NCBI GenBank assembly: GCA_963796565.1
Contig: CAWCMA010000007.1
Span: 487,044-551,043 of the forward strand
Source of the DNA: an uncultured delta proteobacterium
GTDB lineage: Bacteria > Desulfobacterota > Binatia > Binatales > Binataceae
Length of the DNA stretch: 64,000 bases
Direction of reading: 5' to 3'
In this document: positions 1,296 to 13,634 of the stretch, in pieces
Numbering within the stretch: the first letter of the stretch is position 1
Layout of the letters: each line of letters begins with the position of its first letter
The notes under the pieces: generated by a model
The model's input: the letters and a program-made list of their open reading frames with translations, nothing else
The model's database searches: none
What the model was told of the DNA's origin: nothing
Made by a program: the position numbers and the translations under genes

Positions 1296-2794
<1,499 letters not shown>

Positions 2795-2798
<4 letters not shown>

Positions 2799-3094
2799 AT
2801 GATCAGGTCCAAGGCATCACCGACGATCCTGAACGGCAACAGGACTACCGTCACGACGGCATGCGTTGTCGCGCCCAGGACGCTATCGGGTTCATTCGAT
2901 TGTTTCGTGGTGGTGGTTGTAGTGGTGGCCGGAGCCTGGGCATAACCCGCTTGCGGGTCATTGGTTACCGCTCCGCCGTCGGATCTGGTCACGCTGGTTG
3001 TCGTGGTGGTTCTCTCGCCGCTTGAACATCCCTGGGCCAGCACAATCGCACAGGATGCCACCGCGGCAGCGAATAGTACTGCAAGCCGCTTCAT
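2795..3094 (-). CDS. Small Thr-rich lipoprotein, first gene of the two-component operon (4-nt ATGA overlap with the regulator)
   Basis: Signal peptide plus lipobox MKRLAVLFAAAVASCAIVLAQGC, followed by poly-Thr tracts (TTTTTS, TTTTTTTK). Its stop overlaps the regulator start. Confidence 0.55.
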
Positions 3095-3273
3095 CCTCCA
3101 TTCTCCTCAATCACGAATCCCGCCGCGCCGGCCCGCGCGTTGGACCCGTAGGAGGCATCATATCACGGCCACGGGCGGCGCAAACAGAGTCAACCATGGC
3201 TACGGAAAAAATGGCGAAACGGCAGAAAGCTCGCGCGTGACAGCCACGGCATCGCGCCGTATTCTGATCGAGT

Positions 3274-4539
3274 ATGGATGACATCTCGTCTGAAAGCGCC
3301 GGGGCCTCCCCGGCGGCGGCGGAGGTCCGCGAAATTGCGCGCGACGAGATTCGCCGCCGCCTCGGCGATCCCACACTCCTGCTGGTCGACGTGCTCCCGC
3401 GCGAGTCCTATGCGGCCGAGCACATTTCCGGCGCGCTGAATCTGCCGCTGGCTGAGGTGGAAAAGCACGCGCTCGAGGTGCTGCCCGATCGCACCGCCGA
3501 CATCGCCGCCTATTGCGCCAAATTCACTTGAACGGCCGGCGCGCAGGCGGTCCGCCTGCTCCAGCGGCTGGGCTATACCAACGTGCGGTACTACCACGGC
3601 GGCATCGCCGACTGGAAGGAGGCCGGATTGCCGATCGAGGCCGCGCCGGGCGGTGCCGAAGCCGCGCCGCAGGATGGGCCGCAGTTGGAGACGCGGCCGC
3701 CGCGCCGGACACGGCCCGCGCCGCCAAGCGTCTCGCGCCGTCAGCAGTGGGGCAACGCGTTGCTCGATCTGCTGGAGAGCCTGTCGGCCTCGCAGATCTT
3801 TTTGGTCTGGCTCGGGATGGTCGTGGTCTGTGGATTCCTCTACTGGCTGATCGGGTTTGCGCATCGCCCCGGGCTGGTCGACGGCGGCAGGCCGATCGCA
3901 GCCACGCTCGGCGGACTGCTGAGCGCCCTCTACTTCAGCTTCGTCACCACCACCTCGGTCGGCTACGGCGACGTATTGCCGATCGGACTGGCCAGAATCC
4001 TCTCGATCTTCGAGGCGGTCACCGGGTTGCTTATCTTCGGCGCGCTGGTCGCCAAGTTCGTCTCGCGCCGCCAGGACGAACTGGTGCGTGAAATCTTCGC
4101 CGTTACCTTCGAAACCCGGCTTGACCGCGTGCAGACCAACCTGCACCTGGTGCTCTCGGAGTTGCAGTCGATCGCGATGCTGTGCGACGAGGGCGTGACT
4201 CAGCCGCAACGAGTCGCCGCGCGACTGGAGAGCGCAGTGCTGGTGTTCGGCGGTGAACTGCGCGCAATCCATTCGCTTCTGTACAGTCCGCAGCGCGCCC
4301 CCGGGGAGGCGGTGCTGGAGGCCATCCTGGTCGCACTCGGTTCCGCGCTGCGCACGCTGAGCGATGTTATGACCTGTCTACCAGCCGGGTTGGACCGTTC
4401 ACCGACGCTCCAGAACGCGCTCCGGAACATCCGTGCGCTCGCCGATGACATCTGCGCCGAATGCGTGCCGCAGGTCTACGCGCCGGGGCTCACGGTCTGG
4501 ATGGATCGGGTCCAGGAAACCGCGCGCAAGATCGTTTGA
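3274..4539 (+). CDS. Rhodanese-domain / two-TM K+ channel fusion with an in-frame TGA (3529-3531) that is a candidate selenocysteine codon
   Basis: Track ORFs 3274..3531 and 3583..4539 are in the same frame and are separated only by the TGA. The rhodanese motifs continue across it: ...DIAAYCAKFT-TGA-TAGAQAVRLLQRLGYTNVRYYHGGIADWKEAGLPIE. Downstream there is TM1 (IFLVWLGMVVVCGFLYWLIGF), the pore helix and K+ filter TTTSVGYGD, TM2, and a roughly 180-aa C-terminal cytoplasmic domain. Confidence 0.6.
3543..3559 (+). other. SECIS-like hairpin (GCAGGCGG-UC-CGCCUGC) beginning 11 nt after the in-frame UGA, with a GGUC apical loop
   Basis: A perfect 7-8 bp stem seen directly in the sequence. The spacing and the GGU loop position (U about 20 nt after UGA) closely mimic the E. 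coli fdhF SECIS (UUGCAGGUCUGCACC, G23U24). Confidence 0.5.
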
Positions 4540-4632
4540 CCTGGAAAGTTCGTTTGATTCGCGGGTGCCGCTCTAATGATGTGAAGGGCAGCTTGTTGCG
4601 CGGCTTTCCGCGCGTAAATGATCAAATGAAAA

Positions 4633-4660
4633 ACAAAAAACCCGCATTAATGCGGGTTTT
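4633..4660. terminator. Bidirectional rho-independent terminator (AAAAAACCCGCATTAATGCGGGTTTTTT)
   Basis: A GC stem flanked by an A-run and a T-run. It serves the plus-strand channel gene and the minus-strand tRNA. Confidence 0.7.
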
Positions 4661-4661
4661 T

Positions 4662-4738
4662 TGGTTGCGGGGGAGGGATTTGAACCTTCGACCTCCGGGT
4701 TATGAGCCCGGCGAGCTACCAGACTGCTCCACCCCGCC
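4662..4738 (-). tRNA. tRNA-Met (CAU), initiator type
   Basis: The reverse complement reads GGCGGGGTGGAGCAGTCTGGTAGCTCGCCGGGCTCATAACCCGGAGGTCGAAGGTTCAAATCCTTCCCCCGCAACCA. This is a cloverleaf with the GGG/CCC anticodon stem, a CAU anticodon, a 1:72 mismatch and a CCA end, and it is near-identical to E. coli tRNA-fMet. Confidence 0.9.
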
Positions 4739-8826: not shown

Positions 8827-9399
8827 ATGAATCAGACCGAACGCAATGAACTGCTCGCCCTGCTCGCGCGCGAGTCCTACTTCGAGCGCGCCGCCGTCAC
8901 GCTGACCTCCGGGCGCTCCTCGGACTACTACATCGACGCCAAGCGCACGCTCTACCTGCCCCGCGGCGCGTACCTTGCCGGCGAGCTGATGTTGGAGCTG
9001 GTGCTCGCCGAGGGAATCGAACAGATCGGCGGGATGGCGGCCGGGGCGCTGCCAGTGACCGACGCACTGATCGCTGCGGCGCATCGTCATGGCGCGAACC
9101 TCCGCGGCTTCTTCGTGCGCAAGGAAGTACGGACGCACGGCCTCCAACAGCAGATCGAGGGCGCGTTCCGAAAGGAACTGCGCGTCGCGGTTATCGACGA
9201 CACGATCACCACCGGCGGTTCGAGTCTGCAGGCCGCGGCCGCGCTCAAAGAGGCGGGCGCGACGGTGGAGCATGCATTCGCGCTAGTCGACCGCGGCGAA
9301 GGCGCGGCCGCGGCCTTCGCCGGCGCCGGGCTCAAGTACCGCTGGCTCTTCACCGCCGAGGAAGTGCGCGCGGAGCGCGCACGAATCGGCGGTGGCTGA
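8827..9399 (+). CDS. pyrE: Orotate phosphoribosyltransferase
   Basis: PRPP-binding loop VAVIDDTITTGGS and the type-I PRTase fold. Confidence 0.85.
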   Translation: MNQTERNELLALLARESYFERAAVTLTSGRSSDYYIDAKRTLYLPRGAYLAGELMLELVLAEGIEQIGGMAAGALPVTDALIAAAHRHGANLRGFFVRKEVRTHGLQQQIEGAFRKELRVAVIDDTITTGGSSLQAAAALKEAGATVEHAFALVDRGEGAAAAFAGAGLKYRWLFTAEEVRAERARIGGG

Positions 9400-10351
9400 A
9401 CGACGCCGTCCGGCGGCGCGCGCCGCGGCCGCCGGCACGGCGGCGGACGCGCTTGCGGCGGTGGCGCGGGTCGCGCCGCTTGGCGGCGCGACCCGCCTCA
9501 CCGCCGTCTTCGGCGACCCGGTCGAGCATTCGCTTTCGCCCGCGATGCATAACGCGGCGTTTGCCGCGCTCGGCATGGATCGCGCTTACGCCGCGTTTCA
9601 CGTCACGCCGCCGATGCTCCAAGCGGCGCTGCGCGCGCTTCCGGCCCTCGGGATCGTCGGCGTCAACCTGACCGTGCCGCACAAGGAGCGGGCGCTCAGG
9701 CTGGCCGCGAAGCTGAGCGCGGAGGCGCGGATGCTCGGGGCGATCAATTGTGTCGTGAACCGTCCCGCAGGCCTTTATGGCGACAACACCGACGCGCGCG
9801 GCCTGGAGCGCGATTTGGTTAGCCTCGGCGTCGCGCTCAAAGGCGCGGCAGCGGTGGTGATCGGCGCGGGCGGCGCGGCCGCCTCCGCCGTGGTCGCCTG
9901 CCTGCGCTGTGGCGCGCGCGAGGTTGCGATCGTCAATCGCACTCCCGCGCGGGCCTCCGCCTTGACGCGACGGTTGCGGGCGCGGCTCCCGCGCGCGCTG
10001 GGCGGCGCGGCGTTTTCGGTGCGCGGACTCGACGCGCTAGCCGACCTGGCGCTGCTCGAGCGCGCCGCCATCATCATCAACGCGACGCCGATGGGCCTCA
10101 CTTCGGCCGGCTTCGTGCGAATCGAATACGCGCGCACTTCGCGCGGATGTTTTTTCTACGATCTCATCTACGCGGCCCGGCCGACGGCCTTTTTGCGGCC
10201 GGCGATCGCGCTTGGGCGGCACGGGGCCGACGGCGCCGGGATGCTGGTGAATCAGGGCGAACTGGCGTTCGAGCTTTTCAACGGCGTGGCGCCGCCGCCG
10301 GGCGTGATGCGCCGTGCGCTCTTCGAGCGCCTCGGCCGCGATTCCCGCTAG
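9392..10351 (+). CDS. aroE: Shikimate 5-dehydrogenase (true start may be an internal GTG near 9460)
   Basis: [18 protein letters not shown] substrate motif, a Rossmann GAGGAA motif, and NATPMGL. Confidence 0.85.
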
Positions 10352-10443: not shown

Positions 10444-11574
10444 TTAGCCGAACATCTCTTTGAGCTTGTCGACGAAGCCCTTGGAGAGCGGATGGTTGAC
10501 GGCCTCGCCGTCGATGCTCGCGAACTCCTCGAGCAGCTCGCGCTGACGCGCGGTGAGCCGCCGCGGCGTCTCGACCACCATCCGCACGAGCTGGTCGCCG
10601 CGCCCGTAGCCGTGCAGATCGGGAAAGCCCTTGCCCTTGAGCCGGAAGACCTTGCCAGATTGCGCGCCGGCTTGGATTTTTAGCTTGACCTTACCGTCGA
10701 GCGTCGGCACTTCGACCTCGGTGCCGAGCGCGGCCTGCGGAAAGCTTACCGGCAGTTCGATCACTACGTCGTTGTCCTGGCGTACGAAGAGGTCATGCTC
10801 TTTGACGTGGACCACCACGTAGAGGTCGCCTGACGGCCCGCCACCCCATCCGGCCTCGCCCTCGCCGCGCAGTTTGAGGCGCGAGCCATTGTCGACCCCG
10901 GGCGGGATCTTTACCGAAAGCGACTCCGGGCGGCGGATGCGTCCCTGGCCTTGGCACGTGGGGCACGGGTCGGCGATGATCGTGCCTTCGCCGCGGCATT
11001 GGCCGCAGGTGGTGGCGATGGAAAAAAAGCCTTGCTGGGTGCGGACTTGGCCGGTGCCGCGGCAATTGGGACAGGTGCGGGCGCCCTCGGTGCCGCCGCG
11101 CGCTCGGCTTCCAGCGCAGGCGTCGCAAGTCGCCAGGCGCTGGAACTTGATCACCTTCTCGGAACCGCGCGCTGCTTCCTCGAACTCGACTTCGAGGTCG
11201 TAGCGCAGGTCGTCGCCGCGCCGCGAGCGCGAGCGGGTGCGTCCGCGCCCGGTGCCGAAGAAGTCGCCGAAAATATCCGAGAAGACTTCCTCGAAGCCCT
11301 GGGTGAACTCGAAACCGAAGCCGTTGCCTTGCGGACCCTGGAACGCGGCGTGGCCGTAACGGTCGTACTGCGCGCGCCGCTCCGGGTCGGACAGTACCTG
11401 GTACGCTTCGTTGAGTTCCTTGAAGCGCTCCTCGGCCTGCTTGTCGCCGGGGTTGCGGTCGGGATGAGACTGGATGGCGAGGCGGCGGTAGGCTTTCTTG
11501 AGATCTTCGTCGCCCGCGCCGCGATCGACGCCGAGGACCTCGTAATAGTCACGCTTTTTGGCCTGGGGCGGCAT
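10444..11574 (-). CDS. dnaJ: Chaperone DnaJ
   Basis: J-domain with HPD, a G/F region, and four CxxCxGxG repeats. Confidence 0.95.
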
Positions 11575-11620
11575 CGGCGCAATTCTAGACTACGCTGCGA
11601 CCAAAAGTAAGCGGACCTCG

Positions 11621-11662
11621 GCGCGCTGTGTCACAGGATCGCGCCGAGGTCCGTCGGTCGGT
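11621..11662 (-). promoter_or_regulatory. Perfect 14-bp inverted repeat (CGGACCTCGGCGCG...CGCGCCGAGGTCCG) between dnaK and dnaJ
   Basis: Seen directly. The loop is itself palindromic. This is a typical dnaK-dnaJ intercistronic attenuator/processing hairpin. Confidence 0.5.
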
Positions 11663-11684
11663 CATTTGTTTCAATGCCAGCCGC

Positions 11685-13634
11685 TTACTTCACTTCTTTG
11701 AAATCGGCGTCGACCACGTCTTCCTTCTTTTCTTCGTGTGGCTGACCGCCGCCCGCCTCACCGGCGCCACCGGCGTGGCCGTCGTCTCCGGCGGGACCGC
11801 CAGCACCACCCTGAGCGCCGGCGCCCTGGCGGGTCTTGCTGTACATCATCTCAGCCAGCTTGTGCGACGCGGTCATCAAGGCCTCGGTGGTGCGGTTGAT
11901 CTCGTCGAGGTCCTTGGACTCCAACTTCTCCCTGGCCGCCGCGAGCGCGTCCTCGACCGATTTGCGTGCGGCCTCGTCGAGCGCCGCGCCGTTCTCCTTC
12001 AGCGTCTTCTCGGTGGTGTAGACCAGGTTGTCGAGCTTGTTGTGGGCCTCGGCCAACTGACGGCGCTGATGATCGTCCGCCGCGTGTTGCTGGGCCTCGT
12101 TCACCATCCGCTTGATCTCGTCCTCGTTCAGCCCCGAGGAAGCGGTGATCTTGATCGACTGCTCCTTGTTGGTGCCGAGGTCCTTGGCGTGGACGTTGAC
12201 GATGCCGTTGGCGTCGATATCGAAGGTGACCTCGATTTGCGGCAAACCGCGCTGGGCGGGCGGAATCCCGATCAGGTCGAACTGACCGAGCAGTTTGTTG
12301 TCGGCCGCCATCTCGCGTTCGCCCTGGAAGACCCGGATGGTGACTGCGGTCTGGTTGTCCTGGGCGGTCGAGAAAATCTGGCTCTTGCGGGTCGGGATAG
12401 TGGTGTTCTTGTCGATGAGCTTGGTGAACACGCCGCCCAGCGTCTCGATACCCAGCGACAGCGGCGTCACGTCGAGCAGCAGGACGTCCTTGACCTCGCC
12501 CTTGAGCACGCCGGCCTGGATCGCCGCGCCGATCGCCACGACCTCGTCAGGATTGACGCCCTTGTGGCCTTCCTTGCCGAACAGCTTACGCACCCGCTCC
12601 TGGACCGCCGGCATGCGGGTCATCCCGCCCACCAGCACGATCTCGTTGATGTCGCTGGCACGCAGCCCCGCATCCTTCAGCGCCGTTACGCAGGGATGGT
12701 CGAGTCGGTCGAGCAGGTCGGCGCATAGCGCCTCGAGCTTGGCCCGGGTGAGCTTGATATTGAGGTGCTTGGGGCCGGACTGGTCGGCGGTGATGAAGGG
12801 CAGGTTGATGTCGGTCTCCATCACCGTGGAGAGCTCCATCTTGGCCTTTTCGGCGGCTTCCTTCAGGCGCTGCAAAGCCATCCGGTCCGTGCGCAGATCG
12901 ATGCCCTGGTCCTTGCGGAACTCGTCGGCCAGGTAATCGATGACGCGCTGGTCGAAGTCCTCGCCGCCCAGGAAGGTGTCGCCATTGGTCGCCTTGACCT
13001 CGAACACGCCGTCGCCGATCTCCAGGATCGACACGTCGAAGGTGCCGCCGCCGAGGTCGAAGACCGCGATCTTTTCGTCCTTTTTCTTATCCAATCCGTA
13101 GGCGAGCGAGGCCGCGGTGGGCTCGTTGATGATGCGGAGCACGTTGAGCCCGGCGATGCGGCCGGCATCCTTGGTGGCCTGGCGCTGACTGTCATTGAAG
13201 TAGGCGGGCACCGTGATGACCGCCTCGGTCACCTTCTCGCCGAGATAGTCTTCGGCCGTCTGCTTCATCTTTTGCAGGATGAAAGCGGAAATCTCAGGCG
13301 GGCTGTACTTCTTGCCGCGGATTTCCACCCAACCCGCGCCGTCTTCGTTGCGTACGACCTTGTAAGGCAGCACCTTGAGCGCCTTCTGCACTTCGGGGTC
13401 TTCGAACCGCCGCCCCATCAGGCGCTTTATCGCGGACACCGTGTTGGTCGGGTTGGTGATCGCCTGGCGGCGCGCGATTTGTCCCACCAGCCGCTCGCCC
13501 GAATCCGTAAATGCGACGACCGACGGGGTGGTGCGGGCACCCTCTGAGTTGGCGATAACGACGGGGTCGCCCCCCTCCATCACCGCAACGCAACTGTTGG
13601 TCGTGCCCAGATCGATTCCGATTACTTTTGCCAT
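11685..13634 (-). CDS. dnaK: Chaperone DnaK (Hsp70)
   Basis: [18 protein letters not shown]... across the full Hsp70 length. Confidence 0.97.

What the first reader, a model, noticed from the sequence alone, without database searches (positions are those of the whole stretch)
3274..4539. Candidate selenocysteine-containing rhodanese domain fused to a two-TM K+ channel
Two track ORFs (3274..3531 and 3583..4539) are in the same frame and are separated by a single TGA at 3529-3531. That TGA falls at or near the rhodanese catalytic loop (...DIAAYCAKFT-U-TAGAQAVRLLQRLGY...), so conserved rhodanese sequence continues straight through it. Eleven nucleotides downstream is a perfect hairpin, GCAGGCGG-UC-CGCCUGC (3543-3559). 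Its GGUC apical loop and its spacing reproduce the E. coli fdhF SECIS (GCAGGUCUGC, G23U24) to within 1 nt. The same polypeptide continues into a canonical K+ channel pore (FSFVTTTSVGYGDVLP between two TM helices) and a roughly 180-aa cytoplasmic tail. Rhodanese-related sulfurtransferases are a known minor bacterial selenoprotein family. A rhodanese-to-K+-channel fusion, with or without Sec, is not an architecture I know to be described. It suggests a redox-, persulfide- or selenium-gated channel. A bidirectional terminator and an initiator tRNA follow the gene.
Basis: partly seen in the sequence, partly recalled or inferred. Interest (0 to 1): 0.88.

Follow-up and report, generated by a model that had tools for sequence, protein, structure and literature searches.

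The report
Selenocysteine rhodanese fused to potassium channel
The apparent stop codon inside this gene is almost certainly read as selenocysteine, which gives a potassium channel whose cytoplasmic sensor domain carries selenium; this protein family is common in soil bacteria and does not appear in current selenoprotein catalogues.

Summary
One in-frame TGA (3529-3531) splits a Pfam rhodanese domain that is fused to a two-TM K+ channel and a helical tail of about 160 aa.

The TGA is neither an error nor a pseudogene lesion. The same codon is TGA in 70 of the 80 best-matching species-representative genomes (Binatia, Acidobacteriota, Eisenbacteria and others, down to 45% identity). It is TGC or TGT (Cys) in the other 10.

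The motif is Y-C-x-x-x-T-[U/C]. Sec is therefore the second residue of a CxxxxC-type active-site loop, not the canonical catalytic Cys.

A 6-8 bp hairpin starts about 11 nt after the UGA, and its GGUC loop sits 17 nt after it (18 nt in E. coli fdhF). A perfect hairpin of at least 5 bp at this position is present in 67 of 71 TGA forms and 2 of 10 Cys forms. The codons between the TGA and the annotated GTG start evolve as coding sequence.

No NCBIfam model reaches its cutoff. A 2026 review of prokaryotic selenoproteins lists five rhodanese forms but no channel.

Not verified: selA/B/C/D. None lies in the window or in 1.46 Mb of related flanks, and the rest of the genome was out of reach.

Gating of the channel by a Cys-Sec redox or persulfide switch is inference. 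I class the gene as a new variant of a known kind.

The parts
3237..3265 (+). Sigma-70-like promoter candidate (GTGACA-17-TATTCT) ending 8 nt before the ATG; the transcript may be leaderless or have a very short leader
   Evidence: Consensus scan only; weak evidence.
3274..4539 (+). Complete coding sequence of the 421-aa selenoprotein: ATG 3274, Sec-UGA 3529-3531, true stop TGA 4537-4539
   Evidence: Translation. Full-length Cys homologues align end to end. tblastn matches query residues 1-421 in L001-L011.
3343..3624 (+). Rhodanese domain (aa 24-117), spanning the UGA
   Evidence: Pfam PF00581, E 1.8e-16. PDB rhodaneses match by sequence and by fold.
3514..3516 (+). Cys81 (TGC), the canonical rhodanese catalytic cysteine at the end of the central beta-strand
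   Evidence: Aligns with the catalytic Cys of 6mxv and 3tp9. Present in all 81 family sequences read.
3529..3531 (+). UGA read as selenocysteine (residue 86), at the N-cap of the helix that follows the active-site loop
   Evidence: TGA in 70 of 80 related genomes and Cys codon in 10. In the AF2 model of Cys homologue P0062 the strand is 69-73, Cys74 and Cys79 flank the loop, and the helix is 80-91.
3543..3559 (+). SECIS-like upper hairpin GCAGGCG-GUC-CGCCUGC, starting 11 nt after the UGA; the MFE fold adds a lower stem (3533-3538 with 3565-3570)
   Evidence: Folding. A perfect hairpin of at least 5 bp at this position in 67 of 71 TGA forms and 2 of 10 Cys forms. 86% of cells pair, against 28-49% in slid controls. 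The covariance model hits only this site in 1.46 Mb.
3625..3786 (+). Pro/Arg-rich linker predicted to be disordered, followed by a short amphipathic helix before TM1 (aa 118-171)
   Evidence: AF2 pLDDT below 50 for the equivalent segment of P0062, and helix 145-155. The linker columns are poorly conserved.
3787..3852 (+). TM1 (outer helix, about aa 172-193)
   Evidence: AF2 helix 158-179 of P0062, mapped through the invariant Trp (P0062 W165 = window W179).
3913..4065 (+). Pore helix, selectivity filter and TM2 (Pfam Ion_trans_2, aa 214-264); the filter T-T-T-S-V-G-Y-G-D is at 3946-3972
   Evidence: PF07885, E 9e-13. The family profile matches KcsA at E about 1e-8. S228, G230, G232 and D233 are invariant and Y231 is at least 90% conserved.
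4060..4536 (+). Family-specific C-terminal helical tail (aa 263-421), continuous with TM2; H333 and C394-x-x-C397 are invariant, H291 is at least 90% conserved
4634..4663 (.). Hairpin flanked by an A-tract and a T-tract: a bidirectional intrinsic terminator shared with the convergent tRNA gene
   Evidence: Terminator scan and direct reading of the sequence.

Best explanation
This is one gene (3274-4539) encoding a 421-aa selenoprotein.

Decoding: the hairpin that starts 11 nt after the UGA at 3529-3531 would recruit SelB with Sec-tRNA(Sec), and selenocysteine would be inserted at residue 86.

Architecture:
- an N-terminal cytoplasmic rhodanese domain;
- a disordered linker;
- a KcsA-like two-TM K+ pore with a TSVGYGD filter, presumably tetrameric;
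- a family-specific helical tail that continues from the inner helix.

In the rhodanese active-site loop, the canonical Cys81 and Sec86 stand at the two ends (C-x-x-x-T-U).

Most likely mechanism (inferred): this Cys/Sec pair is a redox or sulfane-sulfur switch. It would cycle between free thiol/selenol and a selenenylsulfide or S-S(n)-Se bridge. The state of the switch would change how the rhodanese domain acts on the pore or tail, and so couple K+ flux to the cell's thiol, persulfide or selenium status.

Shown: the gene structure, the Sec/Cys pair, the SECIS-like hairpin, the domain architecture and the breadth of the family.
Inferred: actual Sec insertion in this organism, tetramer formation and gating.

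The confidence of 0.85 refers to 'true Sec-encoding gene for a rhodanese-K+ channel fusion'. I put the gating mechanism at about 0.4.
For: - **TGA/Cys pair.** The TGA splits a Pfam rhodanese domain. All full-length homologues have Cys in that column. The codon is TGA in 70 of the 80 best species-representative genomes, down to 45% identity across several phyla, and TGC/TGT in 10.
- **Hairpin tied to TGA.** A perfect hairpin of at least 5 bp at the same offset occurs in 67 of 71 TGA forms and 2 of 10 Cys forms (Fisher p = 6e-7). 86% of cells pair, against 28-49% in slid registers, with some compensatory changes. The covariance model hits only this site in 1.46 Mb and all but one TGA form.
- **Spacing.** GGUC starts 17 nt after the UGA, against 18 nt in E. 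coli fdhF. This lies within the published 16-37 nt from UGA to apical loop (PMC10778597).
- **Coding through the TGA.** The 17 codons between the TGA and the annotated GTG start show codon periodicity, pN/pS of 0.29 and reduced pS.
- **Independent assembly.** The Logan assembly of run ERR11594399 carries an identical TGA.
- **Channel.** PF07885 and KcsA profile matches.
- **Structure.** AF2 model pLDDT 84; the Cys that stands for Sec sits at the N-cap of the helix after the loop.
- **Precedent.** The nearest curated relative of the rhodanese domain is the selenoprotein TsoB, whose UxxxxU motif has the same spacing.
Against: - No selA, selB, selD or tRNA-Sec was found in the 64-kb window or in 1.46 Mb of flanks from 80 related genomes. 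The rest of the genome could not be read.
- No Rfam SECIS model matches.
- The hairpin is not more stable than dinucleotide shuffles. It is only modestly more stable than synonymous-codon resamples (-12.45 against -9.76 kcal/mol), so much of it is encoded by the peptide Q-A-V-x-L-L.
- Covariation is limited because the stem sequence is highly conserved.
- No second selenoprotein gene was seen in the window or the flanks.
- Nothing tested here bears on gating. There is no conserved operon partner to hint at a ligand.
Confidence: 0.85

Rival explanations
1. The gene is a nonsense pseudogene, or the TGA is a sequencing or assembly error. The TGA would then be a recent CGA/TGC-to-TGA lesion or a miscalled base, and the gene would be dead or mis-read.
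For: A single in-frame stop in a MAG-like sequence is the usual signature of either. Gene callers split the gene into two ORFs.
Against: The same TGA is present in 70 of 80 species-level genomes from several phyla. Both halves are under purifying selection. An independent assembly carries an identical sequence.
Confidence: 0.01
2. There are two separate products. The UGA terminates an 85-aa half-rhodanese peptide, and the channel is translated independently from GTG 3583, as annotated. The N-terminal domain would never be attached to the channel.
For: This is how every database record of the TGA forms is annotated: about 320-340 aa, PF07885 only.
Against: - The split falls inside the rhodanese fold.
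- The 17 codons between the TGA and the GTG evolve as coding sequence in the same frame.
- Predicted starts differ between relatives.
- No Shine-Dalgarno sequence precedes GTG 3583 (direct reading).
- The Cys-form homologues are single polypeptides.
Confidence: 0.04
3. The UGA is read through without selenium. Near-cognate suppression (Trp, Cys or Arg) or another recoding mechanism would give a full-length protein that is not a selenoprotein.
For: The Sec machinery was not found in any sequence I could read. Stop-codon read-through stimulated by a downstream hairpin is known in other systems (general knowledge).
Against: - The aligned residue in every non-TGA homologue is Cys, the hallmark of Sec sites.
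- The position and GGUC loop of the hairpin match the SelB-binding element of fdhF.
- The gene's own terminator codon is also TGA (4537-4539) and has no such hairpin, so UGA is not generally reassigned.
Confidence: 0.07
4. Sec is inserted, but the rhodanese domain is a membrane-tethered enzyme rather than a gate. It could be a sulfur or selenium transferase, or a reductase working at the membrane, much as E. coli YgaP is a rhodanese anchored by two TM helices. The pore would conduct K+ independently, or serve mainly as an anchor or tetramerisation scaffold.
For: Rhodanese domains are usually catalytic. Most known selenoproteins use Sec in catalysis (PMC9312934). The YgaP rhodanese domain is among the structural matches (5hbo). 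The long disordered linker argues against rigid coupling to the pore.
Against: The K+ selectivity filter and pore are strictly conserved across the family. The rhodanese, pore and tail always occur together. The loop lacks the conserved Arg of thiosulfate sulfurtransferases. No partner gene is conserved.
Confidence: 0.3

Closest known systems
TsoB, rhodanese/DsbD fusion-like selenoprotein (NCBIfam NF045694; 'rhodanese form 5', motif UxxxxU; Haft & Tolstoy 2025 as cited in PMC13188914)
   Same: It is the best-scoring selenoprotein model for the rhodanese domain (aa 24-131, E 2.5e-12); only the non-selenoprotein MoeB model scores higher. It has two redox-active chalcogen residues four residues apart in the active-site loop, with Sec at the distal position. 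The rhodanese is fused to a membrane domain.
   Different: The score is 45.7 bits against a cutoff of 805. Here the first position is Cys (CxxxxU), so there is one Sec rather than two. The membrane partner is a K+ channel pore plus a helical tail, not a DsbD-like electron-transfer domain.
Rhodanese-like selenoprotein forms 1-4 (PF00581 UxxS/UxxG; NF041203 'LYCAU' CxU)
   Same: They have a rhodanese fold with Sec in or beside the active-site loop, and are bacterial families predicted by a Sec/Cys pair plus a SECIS.
   Different: In forms 1, 2 and 4 Sec replaces the catalytic Cys itself. In form 3 the motif is C-x-U. NF041203 scores 41 bits against a cutoff of 115. All are listed as rhodanese-domain proteins, with no channel or potassium entry in the review.
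KcsA and other prokaryotic two-TM K+ channels with cytoplasmic sensor domains (MthK-RCK, KirBac, MlotiK1-CNBD)
   Same: The pore has two TM helices, a pore helix and a T-x-G-Y-G-D filter. The family profile matches KcsA at E about 1e-8. The cytoplasmic domains flank the pore.
   Different: The sensor here is an N-terminal rhodanese domain with Cys/Sec, and the C-terminal domain is a family-specific five-helix bundle. I found no known channel that carries either, or any selenocysteine (literature searches; own knowledge).
E. coli fdhF SECIS
   Same: The hairpin lies inside the ORF, the minimal upper stem starts 11 nt after the UGA, and the apical GGUC is 17-18 nt after the UGA.
   Different: The stem sequence is different and G+C-rich, and in this window there is no bulged U on the 5' arm. 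Some relatives have a bulged U on the 3' arm or 5-7 nt loops. SelB binding has not been tested.
E. coli YgaP (inner-membrane rhodanese with two C-terminal TM helices)
   Same: An N-terminal cytoplasmic rhodanese is followed by two TM helices. Its rhodanese domain is a structural match (5hbo). The cysteine of that domain is known to be S-sulfhydrated and S-nitrosylated (PDB title).
   Different: YgaP has no K+ selectivity filter, no helical tail, a single Cys (CQAGKR, own knowledge) and no Sec.

Membership tests
Bacterial selenoprotein gene (UGA-Sec with an in-ORF SECIS) | In-frame UGA inside a conserved ORF, with coding conservation on both sides | tested here: met
   (pN/pS 0.37 upstream, 0.29 and 0.11 downstream; codon periodicity).
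Bacterial selenoprotein gene (UGA-Sec with an in-ORF SECIS) | Homologues with Cys aligned to the UGA | tested here: met
   All full-length homologues have Cys. 10 of 80 genomes have TGC/TGT at the site and 70 have TGA.
Bacterial selenoprotein gene (UGA-Sec with an in-ORF SECIS) | Stem-loop just 3' of the UGA, apical loop 16-37 nt from the UGA, with G/U in the loop | tested here: met
   The loop G-GUC-C begins 17-18 nt after the UGA. It is conserved in 67 of 71 TGA forms. The rule is quoted from PMC10778597.
Bacterial selenoprotein gene (UGA-Sec with an in-ORF SECIS) | Covariation or structure conservation beyond what the coding sequence explains | tested here: inconclusive
   Pairing is 86%, against 28-49% in slid controls, and 3 pairs change on both sides. 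Synonymous resampling gives only about 2.7 kcal/mol excess stability.
Bacterial selenoprotein gene (UGA-Sec with an in-ORF SECIS) | selA, selB, selC and selD present in the genome | not testable with these tools
   None in the window or in 1.46 Mb of related flanks.
Bacterial selenoprotein gene (UGA-Sec with an in-ORF SECIS) | Match to a curated SECIS RNA family | tested here: not met
   No Rfam hit, even at E up to 10. Rfam's bacterial SECIS models are lineage- or gene-specific (own knowledge).
Rhodanese domain (PF00581) | Profile match above the gathering score | tested here: met
   60.9 bits against 22.2, covering 100 of 102 profile positions.
Rhodanese domain (PF00581) | Catalytic Cys at the start of the active-site loop, after the central beta-strand | tested here: met
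   C81 aligns with the Cys of 6mxv and 3tp9. In the AF2 model the strand is 69-73 and Cys74 follows.
Rhodanese domain (PF00581) | Six-residue C-X4-R/[ST] loop of thiosulfate sulfurtransferases | tested here: not met
   The loop is C-A-K-F-T-U-T-A-G. It is two residues longer than in 6mxv and 3tp9 and has no conserved Arg.
TsoB (NF045694) | Score above the curated cutoff, and the rhodanese + DsbD-like architecture | tested here: not met
   45.7 bits against 805, matching the rhodanese part only.
Rhodanese-related (seleno)protein LYCAU (NF041203) | Score above the cutoff, and the C-x-U motif | tested here: not met
   41.2 bits against 115. The motif here is C-x4-U.
Two-TM K+ channel (PF07885 Ion_trans_2, KcsA-like) | Profile match above the gathering score | tested here: met
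   48.4 bits against 22.5. KcsA chains match at E about 1e-8 with the family profile.
Two-TM K+ channel (PF07885 Ion_trans_2, KcsA-like) | Selectivity filter T-[VI]-G-[YF]-G-D between a pore helix and the inner helix | tested here: met
   T-S-V-G-Y-G-D at aa 227-233, with S228, G230, G232 and D233 invariant and Y231 at least 90% conserved. The AF2 helices are arranged TM1, pore helix, TM2.
Two-TM K+ channel (PF07885 Ion_trans_2, KcsA-like) | Tetrameric assembly and K+-selective conduction | not testable with these tools

The most novel reading that the evidence does not exclude
This would be the first selenoprotein ion channel. In this family of K+ channels from soil Binatia, Acidobacteriota and other phyla, opening would be controlled directly by a Cys-x4-Sec switch in an N-terminal rhodanese domain. 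Membrane potential and K+ flux would then respond to sulfane sulfur, thiol redox state or selenium. The family-specific tail, with its conserved His, invariant His and invariant CxxC, would act as the transducer or as a second redox or metal site.
Probability: 0.4. Interest if true: 0.8.

Novelty: new variant of a known kind. Interest (0 to 1): 0.66.

Why it matters
**Annotation.** Most members of this family, about two thirds of the closest database entries, are currently annotated as truncated 'ion channel' or 'hypothetical' proteins next to an orphan 85-aa rhodanese fragment. Recognising the Sec codon repairs these annotations.

**Selenoproteome.** It adds a selenoprotein family with a new motif (C-x4-U) and a new architecture to the catalogue. 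The family is found mainly in uncultured soil lineages (Binatia, Acidobacteriota), which are not among the lineages the 2026 review names as richest in selenoprotein genes.

**Channel biology.** The gene offers a compact, testable candidate for a chemically gated prokaryotic K+ channel whose sensor is a sulfurtransferase-type domain. Natural Sec and Cys variants are available as built-in controls.

Tried and rejected
- **Rfam.** Neither the gathering-threshold search of the window nor the permissive search of 3500-3620 gave a SECIS hit.
- **Sec machinery.** tblastn with E. coli SelA, SelB and SelD, and ARAGORN for tRNA-Sec, found nothing in the window or in 80 related loci.
- **Other selenoprotein genes.** A GC3-based scan of the window found five TGA-joined ORF pairs, all of which look like non-coding frames. 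The Cys-aligned TGA screen of all loci gave nine candidates, all in non-coding frames. The first version of that screen was too noisy to use.
- **Synonymous-codon resampling of the hairpin.** The excess stability was modest, so this is not decisive.
- **Conserved neighbours.** Gene order is conserved only within subclades (22 of 81 loci at most), and the few neighbours I read resemble metabolic genes by eye. I found no operon partner.
- **Literature.** Searches for a rhodanese + K+ channel combination, for a bacterial selenoprotein channel and for Binatota + selenocysteine found nothing relevant. Haft & Tolstoy 2025 is not held.
- **Pseudogene or sequencing error.** Rejected on the comparative data.
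Full report
**1. What is in the sequence**

Bases 3274-4539 on the + strand read as one frame of 422 codons, interrupted only by TGA at 3529-3531. With that codon filled in, the 421-aa product has two Pfam matches:
- Rhodanese (PF00581), aa 24-117, E 1.8e-16, covering 100 of 102 profile positions and running straight across the TGA;
- Ion_trans_2 (PF07885), aa 214-264, E 9e-13.

The K+ signature FSFVTTTSVGYGDVLP is present.

The hairpin is GCAGGCG-GUC-CGCCUGC at 3543-3559, and it starts 11 nt after the UGA. Taken alone it is not unusual for this G+C-rich DNA (z = -0.39 against shuffles).

The gene ends with another TGA at 4537-4539. A hairpin flanked by an A-tract and a T-tract follows at 4634-4663. 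A convergent tRNA-Met(CAT) lies at 4662-4738 on the minus strand and has initiator features.

**2. The TGA is a conserved Sec/Cys site**

*Protein databases.* A protein search gave a characteristic split.
- The closest roughly 60 hits, and about two thirds of the top 120, are 60-100% identical, and those that carry a source name are labelled Candidatus Binataceae. All are annotated as proteins of about 320-340 aa that begin just after the TGA and have only PF07885.
- More distant hits (48-58% identity) are 400-450 aa and have PF00581 plus PF07885.

In the alignment, every full-length homologue has Cys in the TGA column, within the motif Y-C-x-x-x-T-C.

*Genomes.* I then fetched DNA from one genome per species. 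Of 360 relatives found, the best 80 were kept. The codon at the aligned site is TGA in 70 and TGC or TGT in 10. The TGA forms include MAGs labelled Binataceae/Binatia, Acidobacteriota (Vicinamibacterales, Holophagales, Thermoanaerobaculia), Eisenbacteria and Thermodesulfobacteriota. Protein identity to the window falls as low as 45%.

*Selection.* In the closest clade:

| Segment (codons relative to TGA) | pN/pS | pS |
|---|---|---|
| 60 codons upstream | 0.37 | 0.40 |
| +1 to +17 (TGA to the annotated GTG start) | 0.29 | 0.30 |
| +18 to +33 | 0.11 | 0.46 |

All three segments vary most at third codon positions. The lowest pS falls where an RNA structure would overlap the coding sequence.

*Assembly.* A Logan assembly of run ERR11594399 is 100% identical to window 2481-4705, including the TGA.

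Pseudogene, base error and 'two genes' are therefore effectively excluded.

**3. The hairpin behaves like a bacterial SECIS**

- In the TGA forms a 6-8 bp stem (consensus AGCAGGC/GCCUGCU) starts 11-12 nt after the UGA. Its loops are GGUC, G-GUC-C, CGUG(C) or UGGAC, and some copies have a bulged U on the 3' arm.
- A perfect hairpin of at least 5 bp at that offset is present in 67 of 71 TGA forms and 2 of 10 Cys forms. Fisher p = 6e-7, not corrected for phylogeny. The four exceptions still fold imperfectly at the same place.
- On the ungapped alignment 86% of cells pair, against 28-49% when the partner column is slid. Three of seven pairs show changes on both sides. One example is CAG...CUG changing to GAG...CUC, achieved through Q-to-E and L-to-S substitutions.
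- A covariance model built on the element hits only this site in 1.46 Mb on both strands: the window, 69 of the 70 TGA-form loci, and one Cys form weakly.
- Read from the E. coli genome, the fdhF GGUC loop begins 18 nt after its UGA. Here it begins 17 nt after. A review gives 16-37 nt between the UGA and the apical loop for bacteria (PMC10778597).

Three results weaken the case. No Rfam model matches. Resampling synonymous codons removes only about 2.7 kcal/mol on average, so the peptide Q-A-V-x-L-L itself encodes much of the stem. Covariation is limited because the stem sequence is conserved.

**4. What could not be shown**

No selA, selB, selD or tRNA-Sec occurs in the window or in the flanks of the 80 loci. 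I also found no second selenoprotein gene there. Sec decoding in this organism is therefore inferred from comparative evidence, not demonstrated.

UGA is not generally reassigned, because the gene's own stop is UGA and has no hairpin.

**5. Anatomy of the protein**

HMMER alignments to solved rhodaneses place C81 (TGC 3514-3516) on the canonical catalytic Cys. The loop is two residues longer than in 6mxv and 3tp9 and lacks the usual Arg.

I modelled the Cys homologue P0062 with AlphaFold2 (57% identical; pLDDT 84). The model shows, in order:
- beta-strand 69-73, Cys74, loop, Cys79 (equivalent to U86), then helix 80-91, so Sec is the N-cap of the helix that closes the active-site loop;
- a disordered linker, residues 117-142 of the model;
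- a short amphipathic helix, TM1, the pore helix and the filter;
- a TM2 helix that continues unbroken into a five-helix cytoplasmic tail.

The gene has no operon partner conserved across clades. In the window it is transcribed divergently from a small lipoprotein-like ORF and a sigma-54 response regulator.

**6. Mechanism**

*Step 1, strongly supported.* SelB-dependent insertion of Sec at residue 86 gives the full-length protein. When selenium is limiting, termination would yield an 85-aa fragment.

*Step 2, supported by homology.* The pore is a KcsA-type K+ channel. The profile matches KcsA at E about 1e-8. Filter residues S228, G230, G232 and D233 are invariant and Y231 is at least 90% conserved.

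*Step 3, inferred.* C81 and U86 bracket the rhodanese loop and act as a two-chalcogen switch, forming a selenenylsulfide or carrying sulfane sulfur. Three points favour this:
- the distal position is strictly Cys or Sec in all 81 sequences;
- the nearest curated relative of the domain is TsoB, a selenoprotein with a UxxxxU motif at the same spacing;
- the loop lacks the anion-binding Arg of classical sulfurtransferases.

*Step 4, speculative.* The state of the switch alters the contacts of the rhodanese domain with the tail or pore, and so gates the channel.

The main functional rival is a membrane-tethered enzyme in the manner of YgaP. I put the rival at about 0.3 and gating at about 0.4.

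**7. Comparison with what is known**

NCBIfam release 20 has no model that this protein passes. TsoB scores 45.7 bits against a cutoff of 805, and LYCAU scores 41.2 against 115.

The May 2026 review of prokaryotic selenoproteomes (PMC13188914) lists five rhodanese selenoprotein forms: UxxS, UxxG, CxU, UxxG and UxxxxU. It also lists several Sec-containing transporters. It has no entry containing 'channel', 'potassium', PF07885 or CxxxxU. Full-text searches found no paper that links rhodanese, selenocysteine and K+ channels in bacteria.

The gene is thus an uncatalogued selenoprotein family. Its components are known kinds (Sec-rhodanese, in-ORF bacterial SECIS, two-TM K+ pore). The motif, the architecture and the tail domain are new.

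**8. Verdict**

The remaining gaps are the Sec machinery of the host genome and any functional evidence for gating.

- Novelty: new variant of a known kind.
- Interest: 0.66.

Noticed in passing
window 4662-4738 (-): The tRNA-Met(CAT) has initiator hallmarks: a G1 x A72 mismatch and three G-C pairs closing the anticodon stem. By my recollection it is close to E. coli tRNA-fMet. A tRNA-Met lies about 100-150 nt downstream of the channel gene in L001, L005, L006 and L009, and about 660 nt downstream in L002.
   Followed up: partly
window 4634-4663: AAAAAACCCGCATTAATGCGGGTTTTTT is a perfect hairpin between an A-tract and a T-tract. It could terminate both the channel gene (+) and the convergent tRNA gene (-).
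   Followed up: partly
window 4060-4536 (aa 263-421): The family-specific tail has invariant H333 and C394-x-x-C397, with H291 and C304 at least 90% conserved. This could be a metal-binding site or a second redox site. I could not measure distances in the model.
   Followed up: partly
window 3237-3273: The promoter-like GTGACA-17-TATTCT ends 8 nt before ATG 3274, and there is no clear Shine-Dalgarno sequence. The mRNA may be leaderless.
   Followed up: no
protein P0067: A 634-aa relative carries a UbiE-type methyltransferase domain in front of the rhodanese-channel unit. This is a variant architecture of the family.
   Followed up: no
window 3532-3582 and the equivalent in L001-L011: Synonymous divergence is lower in the 17 codons after the UGA (pS 0.30) than in the flanking segments (0.40-0.46). 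This fits an RNA structure overlaid on coding sequence.
   Followed up: partly
window 1296-3094 (-): A sigma-54-dependent NtrC-type response regulator (1296-2798) is preceded by a 99-aa lipoprotein-like ORF (2795-3094). Both are transcribed divergently from the channel gene. No sensor kinase lies adjacent within the window.
   Followed up: partly
loci L022, L026, L029, L036, L042, L043, L058, L075, L078, L079: The Cys forms are scattered among TGA-form clades and have different loop contexts (LTCD, PTCP, FTCP, LTCN). This implies several independent Sec/Cys exchanges. L036 still keeps the hairpin.
   Followed up: partly
window 10444-13634 (-): dnaJ (10444-11574) and dnaK (11685-13634) are ordinary housekeeping genes. 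A shikimate dehydrogenase gene lies at 9392-10351.
   Followed up: no
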